A DNA stretch of 38,402 nt, taken from positions 1 to 38,402 of the IMG/VR virus record IMGVR_UViG_3300045988_041255; one strand, written 5' to 3'. The position numbers were made by a program, and so were the translations under genes. How positions within the stretch are numbered: position 1 is the stretch's first letter; every line of letters begins with the position of its first letter. The notes under the pieces were generated by a model. That model was given only the letters and a program-made list of their open reading frames with translations. It was not told the DNA's origin and ran no database searches. Positions 1,411-14,990 of this stretch are shown one piece after another. Source of the stretch: a virus.

Positions 1411-1484
1411 TGGTTGGGCTGGCAGGTGTCGAACCTGCTATCTGGGAGTCAAAGTCCCATGCCTTACCGTTTGGCTACAGCCCA
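1411..1484 (-). tRNA. tRNA-Gln, anticodon UUG, CCA encoded
   Basis: Hand-folded cloverleaf: TGGGCTG TA GCC AAACGGTAA GGC A TGGGA CTTTGAC TCCCA GATA GCAGG TTCGACA CCTGC CAGCCCA A CCA. Same architecture as bacterial tRNA-Gln. Confidence 0.9.
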
Positions 1485-1587
1485 ACAAAACCCCCGCATG
1501 GTACGCATTGTGAAGAGGCGTGCGGGGGCCGCCTGCCGCGAACTCCCGCCTGCGTCCAGGTGGGATATTTTAGCGGGTCATCGGCTT

Positions 1588-1663
1588 TGGAGCCGTCAGG
1601 GGGACTCGAACCCTCGGCCTGCTGTTTACAAGGCAGCCGCTCTACCAACTGAGCTATGACGGC
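1588..1663 (-). tRNA. tRNA-Thr, anticodon UGU, CCA encoded
   Basis: GCCGTCA TA GCTC AGTTGGTA GAGC G GCTGC CTTGTAA ACAGC AGGCC GAGGG TTCGAGT CCCCC TGACGGC T CCA. One C-A mismatch in the anticodon stem and one A-C mismatch in the T stem. Confidence 0.85.
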
Positions 1664-10771: not shown

Positions 10772-11545
10772 TCACTCCTTCTCTGCTTCGCTTTGCTTCG
10801 TCGGGAAAATGCCCGCTTTGGCCAGCTGCTTCGCCAAAAAGGCGCAGCCCCTTGCCGTCCACAGCGTTTCAGGGTGCTGGTGGGTCCGCCCGTCATTGTG
10901 CGGGATAAGGTTCACACGGGTTTCGGTGTAGCCCTTACCCGTGTACTTCTGGTAGAGCAACCACTGCCCGCCCTGCCGGTACTGGATGCCCAACGCATGG
11001 AGCATCCGGTTGAGCTGCTTCGCGCTCATGCCGTAGTCCTTCGCGATGCTGCCGATAAGCCGCCCGCCGCTCGCCAGCAGGAAGTTTTGTGCGTACTCGG
11101 CGGCAGGTGCGAGCTTCGCGGTTTTCGCCTGCTCAGCCTTGAGCTGCTGCGCAAGGCTGATGATGACATCAGGGTTGAGCAGCGCTTCCTCGATTTTCTG
11201 CGTGGTCATATAAGCCCCGTGCTTGCGGATGCTCGGCAGTACCTCGCTGGTTACCCAGCGTTTAAACTTCTTGGCGGTGGGGAGCTTGCTGGATAACACC
11301 AAAGCATACAGGCCGGATTCATTGATGAGCGTTGCCGCCTGTTCCCTGCCGATGGAGTCACGAATCGTTACCCCATCTCCCTGTCGCTTGTCCTCTGAAT
11401 CCACATGGTCTGCAAGCGCCTTTCGCGGATTGGTGTACCCAAGCGCCTCCGCCACATCTTTACCCACCAACCAAGGCTCGCCGTCCTGCTCGATCACTCG
11501 CAGCGTGCCGAATTCCGGATTCTCCCAGATCTTCAAATCTCCCAT
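10772..11545 (-). CDS. Phage antirepressor (BRO-N domain plus KilA-C/ANT C-terminal domain)
   Basis: IWENPEFGTLRVIEQDGEPWLVGKDVAEALGYTNPRKALADHV...LINESGLYALVLSSKLPTAKKFKRWVTSEVLPSIRKHGAY, then AKDYGMSAKQLNRMLHALGI. ATG 11545 has better SD spacing than 11554. Confidence 0.75.
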   Translation of the reverse strand: MGDLKIWENPEFGTLRVIEQDGEPWLVGKDVAEALGYTNPRKALADHVDSEDKRQGDGVTIRDSIGREQAATLINESGLYALVLSSKLPTAKKFKRWVTSEVLPSIRKHGAYMTTQKIEEALLNPDVIISLAQQLKAEQAKTAKLAPAAEYAQNFLLASGGRLIGSIAKDYGMSAKQLNRMLHALGIQYRQGGQWLLYQKYTGKGYTETRVNLIPHNDGRTHQHPETLWTARGCAFLAKQLAKAGIFPTKQSEAEKE

Positions 11546-11550
11546 ATATT

Positions 11551-11763
11551 TCATTCTCCTTTCTCGCTCTGTTCAAGCCGTTCGACAATAATCTCGTTCA
11601 CGGCGGCTTCAAACCGCTGCTGTGCATTCGGTGGGCGGCGATAGCAATTCAGCACTTGGCTGATGTAGCCTTTGGTGATTCCCATTTTTTTACTCAAATC
11701 GTCATAGGTTACATTGTAGTTGTGCATCCGCCCGATCAGCTGGCCTGTCCATTTTTCAGGCAT
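11551..11763 (-). CDS. Cro-like HTH protein, first gene of the leftward early operon
   Basis: ATG 11763 behind GGGGTGA. VTYDDLSKKMGITKGYISQVLN is an HTH. Confidence 0.6.
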   Translation of the reverse strand: MPEKWTGQLIGRMHNYNVTYDDLSKKMGITKGYISQVLNCYRRPPNAQQRFEAAVNEIIVERLEQSEKGE

Positions 11764-11790
11764 TTTTTCACCCCCAATCTGTAAAAAAAT

Positions 11791-11819
11791 TTGACTCAAG
11801 CGGCAATACCTGATATAAT
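11791..11819 (+). promoter_or_regulatory. Near-consensus sigma-70-type promoter
   Basis: TTGACT (11791-96), 17-bp spacer, TATAAT (11814-19). Inverted repeat GGCAAT/ATTGCC (11802-07 / 11824-29) brackets the -10. Confidence 0.7.
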
Positions 11820-11825
11820 CTGGAT

Positions 11826-12118
11826 TGCCATAGATATGGCAGAAAGGAAGTGAGGTCGGCCTTGACCAAACTTTTGATTATGCCCGTTCCAGACTAAAGA
11901 AATTGCGTAACGCGTATGGCTATACGGCAGTCCCAAAGCTGCCAAAGGTTACGGCAAGTCTACAGAATTGCAAGTTCGTTTTGCAAGCAGCGGATGCGCA
12001 TTGCACAAAGGACCGTGTACGTGCCCACCCACATTGGGAGGTTCCGCTGCTGCAAACTTGTTCTGGTAAAAAACTTTGGGAGAAGGCTATCTACTAACGG
12101 ACAGTAGATAGCTTTTTT
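11826..12118 (+). ncRNA. Candidate ~290-nt structured noncoding RNA of the immunity region (class unknown)
   Basis: Bounded by the 11791 promoter and the 12086-12118 terminator. The only ORFs lack an RBS or run into the terminator. A 12-bp long-range stem pairs 11981-93 with 12044-55. Several local hairpins. Confidence 0.5.
12086..12118 (+). terminator. Rho-independent terminator
   Basis: GCTATCTACT-aacggac-AGTAGATAGC followed by TTTTTT. Perfect 10-bp stem. Confidence 0.85.
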
Positions 12119-12142
12119 ATTGCCGCTGCAGTCACTTTATGG

Positions 12143-12171
12143 TTGCAAAAGTTTACTAACCGTGTTATAGT
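12143..12171 (+). promoter_or_regulatory. Promoter for the 12346 HTH gene
   Basis: TTGCAA (12143-48), 17-bp spacer, TATAGT (12166-71). A GTTTAC half-site sits in the spacer. Confidence 0.55.
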
Positions 12172-12223
12172 TAAATTGCAAAATACCTATAACAAGTTGC
12201 CTGGCTTTGCTATACCTCAGATT

Positions 12224-12238
12224 GTTTACTCGGTAAAC
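12224..12238. promoter_or_regulatory. Operator-like perfect palindrome GTTTAC-TCG-GTAAAC
   Basis: 15-bp dyad. Related copies: GTTTAC-T-GTAAAG at 12275-87 and half-sites at 12151-56 and 12305-10. Confidence 0.5.
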
Positions 12239-12345
12239 TTTCGTAACCAACAAGTACAGTATAGCAAGGTTTGTGTTTACTGTAAAGTATTTTCTGGTAA
12301 TTTTGTAAACTTTAGCAACTTGCACAGAAGCAGAGGCGTGAAATT

Positions 12346-12777
12346 ATGAATTTTTATAATACTTATGTAAAACTGTGCAAAGAGCTTGGAAGTTCACCGT
12401 CTCAAATTGCGGTTGATGCCGGTTTTTCCAAGCCGACAGTGTCTCGATGGAAGAAAGGTGGCGGATGCACAGACATAAATCTTGTAATTTTAGCCTCATA
12501 CTTTACGGAAAAGCTCGGAAGGCCGATAACGGTACAATATCTAAAAGGCGATGACAGCCAAACGGTTGACGATCAGTACAAAGATGTGCCGGAAGATGTA
12601 AAAACGCTTGCAGCGGCTATAGCACTGGCTAAAAAAATGCAAGAAAAAAGCTCACCAGCCAAAAAGGCTGATGAGCTTACTAAAGATGATGTAGAAAAAT
12701 GGATTAAAACAGAAGCTACAGATGAAGAGCTTATACAATTCATCGCGGCTGCATCCGCAAAGCTGGCGAAAAAATGA
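12346..12777 (+). CDS. XRE-type HTH protein in an AT-rich island
   Basis: SPSQIAVDAGFSKPTVSRWKKGG is an HTH. The C-terminal half is Lys/Glu/Ala-rich and helical. Confidence 0.75.
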   Translation: MNFYNTYVKLCKELGSSPSQIAVDAGFSKPTVSRWKKGGGCTDINLVILASYFTEKLGRPITVQYLKGDDSQTVDDQYKDVPEDVKTLAAAIALAKKMQEKSSPAKKADELTKDDVEKWIKTEATDEELIQFIAAASAKLAKK

Positions 12778-13189
12778 AAATCAAAAGGTTATATATATCA
12801 ATTTTGTCCCTCATTTTGCCCCCTATTAGTTATATCTATGTACAAATCAATAGCTTCTTTGAGGGAGAGCTGCTTTAAGTATTTTAATGATAATTTTCGC
12901 AAATAATCAATGTCCTGGCTTTTGTTTTGTGTCATTACGCATTTCCCCTTTCTACATTTATATTACTATGTACTCCTTTCTGCTTGCCCCCACCGGATGG
13001 CAAGGGCCTTCAGGCGTTCGGGCGGCTGCTTCTTGTGCAGCCGCTCATTCTGTATACACTCGTTTTCCATTTTGCCCTCGCTTTCTTCCGTGGTGGGATT
13101 TCACTTTTTCTGTAAGTCCATGCATTGTGCGGCCCTCACTCCATGTCAGTACACCTGCATCCCATTACGTATATGATAACACTCACACG

Positions 13190-13219
13190 TTGTCATAAAA
13201 AGAAAGAAAAACGTACTAA
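13190..13219 (+). promoter_or_regulatory. Possible promoter of the repressor-integrase transcript
   Basis: TTGTCA, 18-bp spacer, TACTAA. Confidence 0.3.
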
Positions 13220-13278: not shown

Positions 13279-13851
13279 GTGTACAACGTCAAAAGAATCG
13301 CCGCCCTTTTGTACAATGCGCGAACAAAAGCAGGGTGCAGCCAGGAAGGCATTGCCGAAATGCTGGACATCAGCAAGCAGACGGTGAGAAACTGGGAAAA
13401 AGGCACGTCCACGCCGAATTTGCATGAGTTTGTGATGTGGTACAGGGTGCTGGGAATGAACTGCTTCCGCGACATCATGCGCCTGATACACCCGGAGCTT
13501 TATGAGGACTTTGAGGGCAGCGCCGCCGATGTGGAGCAGCGCCGCAACGGCCTTTTTAAGTACCTTGCAGACTGCCCGCCGGGCGAAGTGGACAAGCTGG
13601 CCTTTTTGATCTTCGGGGCGCACGGCTCTGACTGGCCGTCCATGCTAGACGAGTATGTAGCCAATGCACACTGCACCATGCGCAGCCGGGCGGCCGTGTG
13701 CGGGCTGATACTGGATAACTACACCCTCGAGGCAGGCACGGGCGAACTGGTGGTGCCGGAGACGGCCCCGCCGTGCCTGGAAAATCTCAAAAATGCCTAT
13801 GCCGCCGGGAAGAACGCGGCGCACCTGGGCCGGAACGAATACGCGAGGTGA
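13279..13851 (+). CDS. CI-like repressor candidate: XRE HTH plus a C-terminal domain with no recognisable S24 peptidase motif
   Basis: GTG start 8 nt after AAGGAGG. CSQEGIAEMLDISKQTVRNWEKGTSTP. Confidence 0.65.
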   Translation: MYNVKRIAALLYNARTKAGCSQEGIAEMLDISKQTVRNWEKGTSTPNLHEFVMWYRVLGMNCFRDIMRLIHPELYEDFEGSAADVEQRRNGLFKYLADCPPGEVDKLAFLIFGAHGSDWPSMLDEYVANAHCTMRSRAAVCGLILDNYTLEAGTGELVVPETAPPCLENLKNAYAAGKNAAHLGRNEYAR

Positions 13852-13856
13852 GGAAA

Positions 13857-14990
13857 ATGGCAAGGCCTAAAACGCGAAGCGATGGCCTGATAGAGCGCAC
13901 ACGCATGATAAACGGCAAGCAAATGCACTTTTACGGCCACACCGTGAAAGAGGCACAAGCAAAAATGGATGAGGCTATAAAAAAAGCAGCAGCCCGGGAC
14001 GAAAAAGGGCCGCCGTTTGAAGAAGTCGCTGATAAGTTTTGGGCCTACAAGGAGCCACGGCTGAAATACGGCACACAGCGCGGATACCGCCGCGCCGTGA
14101 ATGCGGCAAAAGACTGGTTCAGCGGCGCGGGAATGAAGGAGATCACAACAACGGATATTTCCCGCCGCCTGTCCCAGATGGCCGCCCAGGGCAAGGCCTA
14201 CAAGACAATTGCAAACCAGCGGTCAGTAATTTCGCTGGTCTATCAATTTTGGTGTACCAACATGGACGGAGACCGCAACCCGTGCGACTTGATCCGCCTT
14301 CCGCAGGGGCTGCCGCAAACGAAACGGCATGCACCTACAGACGCGGAAATCGAAAAGGTAAAAGCGCACACCGACGGTTTCGGCCTGTGTGCAGCCTTTG
14401 CAATGTATGCAGGCCTGCGCCTGGGGGAAATCATGGCGTTACAAAAGCGAGACTTGTCTGGCGGGAAAATTCACGTTACAAAGGCCGTTGTATGGCACGC
14501 AAACCAACCGCATATAGAGCCACCGAAAACGGCGAACGCAGTCCGTGTAGTGCCGATTTTGGCCCCTCTTGCCGCAGCGCTTGTAGGGCGGCTTGACGGA
14601 CTGGCCGATGATGATTATATTTTCGGCGGCAACGCCCCCATGACAAACAGCAAGTACGTGAGTGCTTGGCTCAGATACTGCGCGGAGATAGGCTGCACCC
14701 ACGATAGCGGCAGAGTGACCAGCGCGGGAAAAAAGGACAAGCACGGCAAAACCGTTTACAAGCACTTGCCCGCCCCAGATTTCACGGCGCACCAGCTCCG
14801 GCATGAGTTTGCCAGCGTCCTAACTCAATGCGACGTAAGCCCGCAGGTTGCGAAGGAGCTAATGGGTCACGCAGACATCACCACCACTCAAAAGTGGTAT
14901 GCCGAGGCGAAGTCTTGGGCCATAGACGATGCGACAAGAGCTTTAAACGCGCACTATTATCGTAAAAATATCGTAAACGAGCAAAATTAA
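13857..14990 (+). CDS. int: Tyrosine recombinase / phage integrase
   Basis: ATG 13857 after GAGGTGAGGA. C-terminal HQLRHEFAS...LMGHADITTTQKWY (R-H-R-Y type catalytic region). Confidence 0.9.
   Translation: MARPKTRSDGLIERTRMINGKQMHFYGHTVKEAQAKMDEAIKKAAARDEKGPPFEEVADKFWAYKEPRLKYGTQRGYRRAVNAAKDWFSGAGMKEITTTDISRRLSQMAAQGKAYKTIANQRSVISLVYQFWCTNMDGDRNPCDLIRLPQGLPQTKRHAPTDAEIEKVKAHTDGFGLCAAFAMYAGLRLGEIMALQKRDLSGGKIHVTKAVVWHANQPHIEPPKTANAVRVVPILAPLAAALVGRLDGLADDDYIFGGNAPMTNSKYVSAWLRYCAEIGCTHDSGRVTSAGKKDKHGKTVYKHLPAPDFTAHQLRHEFASVLTQCDVSPQVAKELMGHADITTTQKWYAEAKSWAIDDATRALNAHYYRKNIVNEQN
14959..14975 (+). repeat. Copy of the ATCGTAAAAATATCGTA arm-type repeat inside the 3' end of int
   Basis: Identical 17-mer also at 15134-15150 and 15164-15180. 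Confidence 0.8.

What the first reader, a model, noticed from the sequence alone, without database searches (positions are those of the whole stretch)
11791..12118. Promoter-to-terminator ~290-nt structured RNA in the lysis-lysogeny switch region
Seen: a near-consensus promoter (TTGACT, 17-bp spacer, TATAAT) fires away from the Cro-like gene. A perfect 10-bp stem plus T6 terminator sits at 12086-12118. The interval has only an 11-codon micro-ORF behind a GGAAGTGAGG box (TTG 11871) and two ORFs of 63-64 aa with no RBS that run into the terminator. It has a hairpin at the predicted 5' end (11826-41). A 12-bp long-range helix pairs 11981-93 with 12044-55. The self-complementary TTGCAA at 11981-86 can alternatively pair with TTGCAA at 11968-73, giving mutually exclusive structures. 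Inference: this is a lysogen-expressed regulatory RNA. If the leftward early promoter lies upstream (a weak candidate TTTACC, 17-bp spacer, TATAGC sits on the minus strand at 12238-12209), this RNA would be fully antisense to the early-transcript leader, which would be an RNA-based immunity layer. I could not assign it to a known RNA family by eye.
Basis: partly seen in the sequence, partly recalled or inferred. Interest (0 to 1): 0.65.

Follow-up and report, generated by a model that had tools for sequence, protein, structure and literature searches.

The report
FuFi-1 RNA in a prophage switch
The ~290-nt promoter-to-terminator RNA is a clear member of the known but function-orphan FuFi-1 family, and comparison with 51 other phage loci shows it always lies backwards inside the start of the phage's early lytic transcription unit, which gives its unknown function a testable explanation.

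Summary
Window 11791-12118 has a near-consensus extended -10 promoter, an ~80-nt leader and a strong intrinsic terminator. Bases 11905-12117 match Rfam FuFi-1 (RF02986) at 114 bits against a threshold of 59.6, so the RNA belongs to a known family (Weinberg 2017). I found no later paper on its function. The 63-64 aa ORFs are not conserved.

Comparison with 52 non-redundant loci, all gut Clostridia phages or prophages, adds three points.
1. The fold has two pseudoknots. One is a strongly covarying kissing loop between hairpin P3a and the terminator loop.
2. The transcript is longer than the Rfam model. In 46/52 loci the leader carries a Shine-Dalgarno box and a micro-ORF (MTKLLxLP[AV]P...) with TTG, GTG or ATG starts. 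In the window this is 11862-11897.
3. A strong leftward promoter lies beyond the terminator in 40/52 loci, and between FuFi-1 and the leftward early genes in only 2/52. Early lytic transcription must therefore cross FuFi-1 antisense.

Expression in lysogens and an immunity role remain untested. It is a new member of a known kind, and the mechanism is inferred.

The parts
11791..11819 (+). Promoter of the RNA: -35 TTGACT, 17-nt spacer, extended -10 TGaTATAAT. Predicted start near 11826.
   Evidence: scores it 11/12 with TG. It is invariant in 9 relatives. Plus-strand promoters lie 82-237 nt upstream of the core in 30/52 loci.
11826..11841 (+). Hairpin at the 5' end of the transcript (UGCCAUAGAUAUGGCA).
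   Evidence: A family-wide GCC..GGC hairpin covaries (GCCC/GGGC, GCTC/GAGC).
11846..11855 (+). Shine-Dalgarno-like box GGAAGTGAGG, 6 nt before the micro-ORF start.
   Evidence: The consensus AAGGAG(G) sits at the same place in most of 46 loci.
11862..11897 (+). Conserved leader micro-ORF, TTG..TAA, peptide MTKLLIMPVPD.
   Evidence: present in 46/52 loci, with starts TTG 28, ATG 10, GTG 8. The core is M-T-K-L-L-x-L-P-[AV]-P. Synonymous changes are seen. RNAalifold finds no covariation that would explain the conservation as RNA structure.
11905..12117 (+). FuFi-1 core (Rfam RF02986). P1 11906-11 with 11948-53. P2 11926-30 with 11939-43. P3 11955-59 with 12056-60. P3a 11968-73 with 11981-86. P4 11987-94 with 12043-50, carrying a 48-nt lineage-specific insertion at 11995-12042. 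Junction UGCA 12051-54. Conserved linker GGUAAAAAACUUUGGGA 12065-81.
   Evidence: 114.4 bits, gathering score 59.6, E = 2e-24, full model. My own covariance model scores 71 bits. Across the family 95% of cells pair and 35/49 pairs show compensatory changes.
11974..11980 (+). P3a loop GUUCGUU, one arm of kissing-loop pseudoknot PK1. It pairs with 12096-12102 (7 bp, one U-G).
   Evidence: at least 6 contiguous complementary bases in 52/61 family members, 34 distinct loop sequences, mean 6.4 against 3.5 for permuted partners; 5/7 pairs covary.
12096..12102 (+). Terminator loop AACGGAC, the other arm of PK1.
11931..11938 (+). P2 loop UCCCAAAG, one arm of the likely pseudoknot PK2. It pairs with CUUUGGGA 12074-81.
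   Evidence: CCAAA/UUUGG is nearly invariant, and one-sided changes are mostly wobble-compatible. The pairing reaches 8 bp in the window lineage, with U-A changing to C-G in L158.
12086..12118 (+). Intrinsic terminator: 10-bp stem, 7-nt loop, T6.
   Evidence: I6. Eight of nine stem pairs covary in the family.
11792..11808 (.). Left arm of an inverted repeat that brackets the whole RNA gene. It lies inside the promoter -35 and spacer.
   Evidence: (I4). About 20/52 loci have such a 12-41 nt repeat, in two copies only. The sequence differs between lineages but stays complementary.
12118..12134 (.). Right arm of the bracketing inverted repeat, starting at the last base of the terminator T-run (TATTGCCGCTGCAGTCA).
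12143..12171 (+). Second rightward promoter-like site (TTGCAA, 17 nt, TGtTATAGT), a candidate promoter of the 143-aa HTH gene.
   Evidence: It is conserved in the L158-type relatives. A plus-strand promoter lies downstream of the terminator in 26/52 loci.
12258..12286 (-). Candidate early leftward (lytic) promoter, TTTACA, 17 nt, TGcTATACT, pointing at the RNA gene.
   Evidence: 10/12 with TG. It is flanked by operator-like repeats. Equivalent promoters are found in 40/52 loci.
12142..12319 (.). Three copies of a 15-bp operator-like site GTTrCnAAAGTTTAC, at 12142-56, 12233-47 (reverse complement) and 12305-19 (reverse complement).
   Evidence: D3, I1, I3. The first copy is conserved in relatives.
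12346..12777 (+). 143-aa HTH protein, a candidate repressor.
   Evidence: Searches give weak HTH and PHROG repressor matches. The equivalent gene is Cro/C1-type HTH in 34/45 loci, and 10 match Phage_CI_repr.
10772..11763 (-). First leftward genes: a 70-aa small HTH (11551-11763) and a Bro-N/KilAC antirepressor (10772-11554).
   Evidence: Ant phrog_130, E = 4e-85. No minus-strand promoter-like site was found between 11764 and 12257.
13279..14990 (+). 190-aa HTH_3 protein and a tyrosine integrase (13857-14990), on the same strand as the RNA.
   Evidence: A recombinase lies on the RNA's strand within 4.5 kb in at least 18/36 loci, and all 18 share its strand.

Best explanation
What it is (shown). 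The element is a member of the FuFi-1 RNA family. It is transcribed rightward from its own strong promoter near 11826 to the terminator at 12118, about 290 nt. It folds into a compact, doubly pseudoknotted structure whose terminator hairpin is part of the fold.

Where it sits (shown by comparison of 52 loci). The RNA gene lies backwards inside the 5' part of the phage's early leftward (lytic) transcription unit. It is between the early promoter and operator region (12142-12319 in the window) and the first early genes (small HTH, then antirepressor). It is on the strand of the repressor-like HTH gene and the integrase.

How it most likely works (inferred). The RNA gene is a convergent partner of the early lytic promoter. 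While the early promoter is repressed or only leaky, transcription from the FuFi-1 promoter collides with or dislodges leftward polymerases. The abundant, stable RNA can also pair with the complementary ~300-nt early leader. Together these would keep the antirepressor and other early genes off. When the early promoter fires fully, it runs over the FuFi-1 promoter and silences it. That mutual inhibition would sharpen the lysis-lysogeny switch.

What this does not explain. The conserved fold, the matched hypervariable kissing loops and the conserved leader micro-ORF are more than plain antisense needs. They probably add stability, a bound partner (protein, ribosome or a second RNA copy) or a second, peptide-coded function.
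For: Identity. Rfam FuFi-1 scores 114.4 bits against a gathering score of 59.6 over the full model. All helices are present. In the family 95.3% of cells pair and 35/49 pairs have compensatory changes, with 0/500 shuffles reaching this. G-U pairs outnumber A-C pairs 91 to 13, so the folded strand is the plus strand.

Architecture in 52 loci clustered at 90% identity. A minus-strand promoter (at least 10/12 matches) lies within 450 nt downstream in 40/52, and 30/52 reach 11/12 or better. Within 450 nt upstream the count is 2/52, and 0/52 at 11/12. None lies inside the RNA.

Neighbouring genes. In 24 loci a small Cro/C1-type HTH gene on the minus strand ends within about 100 nt of the terminator, in most within 60 nt. 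The downstream plus-strand gene is Cro/C1-type HTH in 34/45, and 3 of these carry Peptidase_S24. All 18 detected recombinases are on the RNA's strand.

In the window. The minus-strand promoter 12286-12258 sits between operator-like repeats. The small-HTH ATG at 11763 is only 27 nt from the FuFi-1 -35 box, which leaves no room for a separate leftward promoter.

Mechanistic precedent. Convergent-promoter interference is described for lambda PR/PRE and for pL of phage 186 (PMC5001618). The antisense RNAs OOP, sar, aQ and c4 act in phage switches, several of them on antirepressor genes (PMC12197685).
Against: All promoters are consensus matches, and no transcript ends are known. Leftward genes could use promoters that the sigma-70 scan cannot see.

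Twelve of 52 loci lack a detected convergent promoter. One locus (L273) sits next to rplM.

Plain antisense or interference needs no conserved tertiary fold, and known phage antisense RNAs are 70-220 nt and simple.

The family's discoverers proposed a 'sophisticated biochemical function' and found no self-cleavage (PMC5737381). That fits a trans-acting role equally well.

The micro-ORF and the bracketing inverted repeat are unexplained by this model.
Confidence: 0.42

Rival explanations
1. The RNA is a trans-acting structured particle. FuFi-1 would bind a protein, a small molecule or further copies of itself. For example, the matched loops might join two molecules rather than fold one. Its job would be unrelated to antisense pairing, such as host takeover, anti-defence or RNA scaffolding. 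Its position would only reflect co-regulation with the lysogeny module.
For: The family has invariant single-stranded nucleotides, two pseudoknots and a multi-domain architecture, with an extra ~130-nt domain in most lineages. The loop pairs are hypervariable but matched, with 34 variants. The discoverers' assessment points the same way (PMC5737381).
Against: Orientation and placement relative to the early promoter are strict in about 40/52 loci. A purely trans-acting RNA would not need this. No protein gene other than generic HTH regulators is consistently adjacent.
Confidence: 0.3
2. The micro-ORF peptide is the main product. On this reading the transcript is a small mRNA for MTKLLxLP[AV]P..., and the FuFi-1 fold serves as a stabilising or translation-controlling 3' region. 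Alternatively the RNA is a dual-function RNA like SgrS/SgrT or IsrK.
For: A Shine-Dalgarno box and an NTG start are conserved in 46/52 loci. The start codon switches between TTG, GTG and ATG, synonymous substitutions occur, and the frame is kept where nucleotides diverge, as in L268, L230 and L273. No covariation explains the leader as RNA structure.
Against: Only about 10 residues are conserved, and length varies from 11 to 36 aa. The 3' fold is far more elaborate and better conserved than a stabiliser needs to be. TTG starts predominate. The nucleotide conservation could partly reflect invariant RNA contacts such as GGCA/UGCC and AAAGG/CUUUU.
Confidence: 0.15
3. The RNA is a cis-acting attenuator or riboswitch-like leader. 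Its terminator would be conditionally read through to express the downstream repressor gene.
For: A same-strand Cro/C1-type HTH gene lies downstream in 34/45 loci. A leader peptide plus a terminator is the classical attenuator layout.
Against: In 24/52 loci an opposite-strand gene lies between the terminator and the repressor. In 26/52 a separate plus-strand promoter follows the terminator, including the window at 12143-71. The terminator hairpin is an integral, covarying part of the fold, and no conserved anti-terminator alternative was found. The discoverers note that the motif is rarely in 5' UTRs.
Confidence: 0.08
4. The interval encodes a 63-64 aa protein, and the apparent RNA structure is incidental.
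For: Two long open frames exist in the window.
Against: Frame-shifting indels occur in close relatives. The median longest open stretch is 29-40 codons, with no consistent frame across 52 loci. There is no ribosome-binding site. Gene callers skip the interval. Compensatory base-pair changes are massive.
Confidence: 0.01

Closest known systems
FuFi-1 RNA motif (Rfam RF02986; Weinberg et al. 2017, PMC5737381)
   Same: The window matches the full covariance model. It has the same helices, conserved nucleotides and 3' intrinsic terminator, and a Bacillota phage context.
   Different: The window lineage has a 48-nt insertion in P4 and a short (~80 nt) leader. The Rfam model covers only the 3' 175 positions and omits the conserved 5' hairpin, Shine-Dalgarno box and micro-ORF seen here. 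No function is published.
Lambda OOP and aQ RNAs, and the P22 sar RNA (cis-antisense RNAs in phage switches; PMC12197685)
   Same: Each is a short transcript with its own promoter and terminator, made from the strand opposite early or regulatory genes. Each tunes lysis-lysogeny, and sar targets an antirepressor operon.
   Different: They are 68-220 nt and overlap coding or ribosome-binding regions, and I know of no conserved tertiary fold in them (own knowledge). FuFi-1 overlaps a long 5' leader, is conserved in 3D-relevant nucleotides across unrelated phages, and carries a micro-ORF.
Convergent-promoter transcriptional interference (lambda PR/PRE; pL of phage 186; PMC5001618)
   Same: A lysogeny-side promoter faces the lytic promoter, so that each can interfere with the other by collision, dislodgement or occlusion.
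   Different: In those systems the lysogenic transcript runs on into the repressor or integrase genes. Here it stops at a terminator after a structured RNA.
P1/P7 c4 immunity RNA (antisense control of the antirepressor; PMC12197685)
   Same: An RNA layer of immunity acts on an antirepressor operon, and variable short pairing segments set the specificity.
   Different: c4 acts in trans on the ant ribosome-binding site. No complementarity between FuFi-1 loops and the Ant start region was examined here, and the FuFi-1 loops pair with each other.
Dual-function RNAs (for example IsrK of Gifsy-1; PMC12197685)
   Same: One transcript combines a regulatory RNA with a short coding frame.
   Different: Translation of the FuFi-1 micro-ORF is only inferred.

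Membership tests
FuFi-1 RNA (RF02986) | Covariance-model score at or above Rfam's gathering score, over the whole model. | tested here: met
   114.4 bits against 59.6, model positions 1-175, E = 2e-24.
FuFi-1 RNA (RF02986) | Helices P1, P2, P3, P3a and P4, with conserved GCAG..CCAAA..CUGC, AAAG, AGAA, UGCA and GGUAAA.AA.UUUGG. | tested here: met
   Alignment. Coordinates were checked. There is one mismatch each in P1 and P3.
FuFi-1 RNA (RF02986) | A Rho-independent terminator forms the 3' end. | tested here: met
   10-bp stem plus T6 at 12086-12118.
FuFi-1 RNA (RF02986) | The hairpin loop is complementary to the terminator loop (pseudoknot). | tested here: met
   GUUCGUU pairs with AACGGAC, 7 bp with one U-G. 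In the family 52/61 members have at least 6 complementary bases.
FuFi-1 RNA (RF02986) | Occurrence in Bacillota or Fusobacteriota. | tested here: inconclusive
All genome hits confirmed by the covariance model are Clostridia. Fusobacteria were not sampled by my pattern.
Cis-antisense regulatory RNA (OOP/sar type) | It is transcribed opposite to, and overlapping, a target transcript. | tested here: inconclusive
   The overlap is predicted from promoter positions in 40/52 loci. There are no transcript data.
Cis-antisense regulatory RNA (OOP/sar type) | Its effect depends on complementarity or on convergent transcription. | not testable with these tools
   This needs genetics and RNA analysis.
Riboswitch or transcription attenuator | It lies in the 5' UTR of the gene it controls. 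| tested here: not met
   An opposite-strand gene intervenes in 24/52 loci, and a separate promoter follows the terminator in 26/52.
Riboswitch or transcription attenuator | A conserved alternative (anti-terminator) pairing exists. | tested here: not met
No other alternative was seen.
Type I toxin-antitoxin | A hydrophobic toxin of about 20-60 aa, with an overlapping antisense RNA. | tested here: not met
   The conserved peptide core is only about 10-12 aa, and many copies stop at 11-13 aa.

The most novel reading that the evidence does not exclude
FuFi-1 would be the 3' domain of a dual-function 'gatekeeper' transcript used by many temperate phages of gut Clostridia. A translated leader peptide (MTKLLxLP[AV]P) and a doubly pseudoknotted RNA would together lock the early lytic operon from the opposite strand. 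The hypervariable but matched loop pair would act as a lineage-specific address, possibly joining two RNA molecules or the RNA and its antisense target. The inverted repeat that brackets the gene would form a processing stem in the early transcript. This would be an RNA-based layer of the lysis-lysogeny switch unlike OOP, sar or c4.
Probability: 0.25. Interest if true: 0.75.

Novelty: new member of a known kind. Interest (0 to 1): 0.55.

Why it matters
FuFi-1 was singled out in 2017 as one of a few orphan bacterial RNAs whose conservation suggests a sophisticated function. I found no later paper addressing it.

The comparison here gives three concrete, testable handles. The RNA has a fixed antisense position in the early lytic leader next to the repressor and operator region. 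The Rfam model omits a conserved translated-looking leader. The loop-loop contact is hypervariable but matched.

If the gatekeeper model is right, a large group of human-gut prophages uses a structured RNA as part of the decision to stay dormant or kill the host. That is relevant to prophage induction in the microbiome. If it is wrong, the window is still a well-delimited, promoter-to-terminator example for experiments.

Tried and rejected
- **Phage database search.** blastn of 11764-12345 against 50,697 GenBank phages found no match.
- **First pattern scan.** A 14-base pattern returned mostly chance hits. It was replaced by a 17-base pattern. In the genome collection about 75 of 110 pattern hits were chance, and the covariance model removed them.
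- **Terminator scanner.** It missed the terminator, so the hairpin was confirmed by reading the sequence and by Rfam.
- **Leader as RNA structure.** RNAalifold found 9 invariant pairs, no covariation and -3 kcal/mol. This reading is not supported.
- **Bracketing inverted repeat as a multi-copy operator.** Rejected, because each lineage has exactly two copies and none lies near the early promoter.
- **Same repeat as a second promoter.** Rejected, because no -10 box lies at the right spacing (read).
- **Same repeat as an invertible segment.** No locus was found in the flipped orientation.
- **Kissing-loop sequence tracking repressor type.** It does not. L221, L128 and L187 share the loop but have different repressors.
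- **Literature.** Searches for FuFi-1, RF02986, related orphan motifs and phage antisense RNAs returned only the 2017 discovery paper.
- **Supplementary text.** The supplement of the 2017 paper is not held.

Full report
**1. What is there**

The interval lies between a leftward 70-aa HTH gene (ATG at 11763), which is followed by a Bro-N/KilAC antirepressor, and a rightward 143-aa HTH gene (12346-12777). Further right on the plus strand are a 190-aa HTH_3 protein and a tyrosine integrase. The window is a 38.4-kb human-gut metagenome contig. Public gene calls leave the 582-nt interval empty.

The promoter TTGACT, 17 nt, TGaTATAAT (11791-11819) scores 11/12 with an extended -10. It is the best site in 3 kb.

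The terminator is a perfect 10-bp stem (12086-95 with 12103-12), followed by T6 to 12118. The RNA from 11826 to 12118 folds at -103 kcal/mol, z = -4.4. The micro-ORF starts at TTG 11862, not 11871. The proposed 12-bp helix is only partly right.

**2. Identity**

Rfam assigns 11905-12117 (+) to FuFi-1 (RF02986). The score is 114.4 bits against a gathering score of 59.6, over the full model, with E = 2e-24.

The only paper in the library that mentions FuFi-1 is the 2017 discovery paper. It describes a highly conserved motif with a 3' intrinsic terminator that is rarely in 5' UTRs, shows no self-cleavage in vitro, and has no known function.

**3. Family data gathered here**

A 17-base pattern from the conserved 3' linker found at least 119 IMG/VR viral contigs and 110 genome stretches. 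I built a covariance model from 20 diverse copies. It confirmed about 140 copies.

All genome hits that the model confirmed are gut Clostridia, apart from one unnamed MAG and one 2.3-kb contig binned as Holosporaceae. They include Lachnospiraceae, Oscillospiraceae, Acutalibacteraceae, Faecousia, Eubacterium, Ruminococcoides and Anaerostipes. The remaining pattern hits were chance. Clustering the flanks at 90% identity left 52 non-redundant loci.

**4. Structure**

On the 20-sequence alignment, 95.3% of cells form standard pairs and 35 of 49 pairs show compensatory changes. No shuffle reached this, and all slid controls fall to about 40%. G-U pairs outnumber A-C pairs 91 to 13, so the plus strand is the folded one.

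Two tertiary pairings stand out.

- **PK1** joins the P3a loop to the terminator loop. In 52 of 61 copies at least 6 contiguous bases are complementary. There are 34 different loop sequences, and the mean is 6.4 against 3.5 for permuted partners. In the window GUUCGUU (11974-80) pairs with AACGGAC (12096-102).
- **PK2** joins the P2 loop to the invariant linker (CCAAA with UUUGG). It is conserved rather than covarying, but it tolerates wobble changes. It extends to 8 bp in the window lineage.

The other 5 would need the P3a strand, which varies freely in other lineages. The "mutually exclusive structures" idea is therefore not conserved.

The window lineage carries a 48-nt insertion in P4.

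**5. Not a protein gene**

Single-base indels in relatives that are about 95% identical in this stretch shift the 63-64 aa frames. Across 52 loci no frame is consistently open.

**6. The transcript is longer than the Rfam model**

Plus-strand promoters lie at fixed offsets upstream of the core. The offset is -216 in about a dozen lineages, and otherwise between -237 and -169 or between -136 and -82. In the window it is -84.

The leader is conserved family-wide and is homologous to window 11826-11900. It has a 5' hairpin, then AAAGGAG, then a micro-ORF. The micro-ORF is found in 46/52 loci, with TTG, ATG or GTG starts (28, 10 and 8). In some loci an in-frame ATG lies one codon upstream. The peptide core is M-T-K-L-L-x-L-P-[AV]-P, and lengths range from 11 to 36 aa.

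Synonymous changes occur (TTG to CTG or TTA, CCT to CCC, CCC to CCA). Three lineages keep the frame despite different nucleotides, which favours real translation. RNAalifold finds no covariation that would explain the leader as RNA structure.

Most lineages have a further ~130-nt domain between the micro-ORF and the core. It contains a covarying hairpin with a CCAAAG loop. The window lineage lacks this domain.

**7. Genomic architecture**

Promoter-like sites with at least 10/12 matches were counted per locus in the 52 loci:

| Strand and position relative to the RNA | Loci with a site |
|---|---|
| Minus strand, within 450 nt downstream of the terminator | 40/52 (30/52 at 11/12 or better) |
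| Minus strand, within 450 nt upstream | 2/52 (0/52 at 11/12 or better) |
| Inside the RNA, either strand | 0/52 |
| Plus strand, upstream | 30/52 |
| Plus strand, downstream | 26/52 |

In 24 loci a small minus-strand gene ends within about 100 nt of the terminator, in most within 60 nt. Fifteen of these match HTH_26, six match HTH_3 and five match DUF739, so they are Cro-like.

The first plus-strand gene downstream is a Cro/C1-type HTH in 34/45 loci. Ten match Phage_CI_repr and three carry Peptidase_S24. A recombinase lies on the RNA's strand in all 18 cases detected.

The leftward early genes therefore have no promoter of their own. The early promoter lies beyond FuFi-1, and early transcription must traverse the RNA gene antisense.

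In the window the candidate is 12286-12258. It is flanked by two of three 15-bp operator-like repeats. The third repeat overlaps the -35 box of a conserved rightward promoter at 12143-71.

**8. Mechanism**

- **Shown:** identity, fold, strand, conserved leader and conserved antisense placement.
- **Inferred:** the FuFi-1 gene acts as a convergent partner of the early lytic promoter. Collision and dislodgement interference would work as described for lambda PR/PRE and phage 186 pL. The RNA would also pair with the complementary early leader, as OOP, sar and aQ do with their targets. Together these would hold the small-HTH and antirepressor operon down while the early promoter is weak. Full early transcription would in turn shut FuFi-1 off. 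I put this at about 0.4.

The elaborate fold, the matched hypervariable loops and the micro-ORF are not needed for plain antisense. They keep a trans-acting or dual-function role open (about 0.3 and 0.15).

A read-through attenuator for the repressor is unlikely. Intervening convergent genes, separate promoters and the lack of a conserved anti-terminator all argue against it.

**9. Unexplained**

In about 20/52 loci a 12-41-nt inverted repeat brackets the RNA gene. One arm lies in the -35 and spacer of its promoter (window 11792-808). The other lies right after the terminator (window 12118-134). There are only two copies per locus. The sequences differ between lineages but stay complementary. 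Both arms are co-transcribed only in the leftward transcript, where they could close a stem around the whole anti-FuFi segment.

**10. Verdict**

The RNA is a new member of a known family with unknown function. The value lies in the family-level context, which turns an orphan motif into a testable switch component.

Noticed in passing
window 11792-11808 and 12118-12134; also L222, L212, L149, L062, L265, L289, L329, L223, L332, L244: An inverted repeat of 12-41 nt brackets the FuFi-1 gene, running from the promoter -35 and spacer to just after the terminator. Each locus has two copies only. The repeat covaries between lineages. Only the antisense transcript would contain both arms.
   Followed up: partly
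window 12142-12156, 12233-12247, 12305-12319: Three copies of a 15-bp operator-like site (GTTrCnAAAGTTTAC) surround a face-to-face pair of promoter-like sites, plus-strand 12143-71 and minus-strand 12286-58. This is probably the real repressor and early-promoter switch.
   Followed up: partly
IMG/VR loci such as L220, L222, L223, L213: about 130 nt between the micro-ORF and the Rfam core: Most FuFi-1 lineages carry an extra conserved domain upstream of the Rfam model. It includes a covarying hairpin with a CCAAAG loop that resembles P2. The window lineage and the L221 lineage lack all or part of it.
   Followed up: partly
window 1491-1527 (-): A marginal Rfam abiF-motif hit (40 bits against 37) lies between tRNA-Thr and tRNA-Gln. 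It is a GC-rich hairpin followed by TTTT. No AbiF gene is nearby, and the next gene is ParB-like. It is probably just a terminator-like hairpin.
   Followed up: partly
window 1411-1484 and 1588-1663 (-): Two tRNA genes (Gln-TTG, Thr-TGT) lie upstream of a 400-aa ParB-N protein within the phage-like region.
   Followed up: no
window about 11500-13200: A low-GC island (0.39-0.47 against about 0.55-0.63 on either side) covers the FuFi-1 gene, the operator region, the 143-aa HTH gene and a ~500-nt gap before the 190-aa HTH gene. The homology blocks shared with relatives end at 11686 and 12192. Both points suggest a mosaic module.
   Followed up: partly
L212 (IMG/VR 3300045988_009692): Here the P3a loop (GCGCUAU) does not match the terminator loop (GACAGCCC). 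This looks like a recombinant between two lineages that breaks the kissing loop.
   Followed up: no
L199, L200, L201, L206, L215: These loci hold truncated or chimeric copies with only the 3' half of FuFi-1 joined to unrelated upstream sequence. Two of them are cut by contig ends.
   Followed up: no
L247 3744-3875 and 3885-4019 (Acutalibacteraceae MAG): Two weak tandem hits of the family model (30 and 35 bits) lie side by side. They may be a divergent duplicated variant.
   Followed up: no
L273 (Acetatifactor MAG): A FuFi-1 copy with the micro-ORF lies 383 nt upstream of ribosomal protein L13 and lacks the usual repressor gene. It may sit at a prophage edge or in a non-phage context.
   Followed up: no
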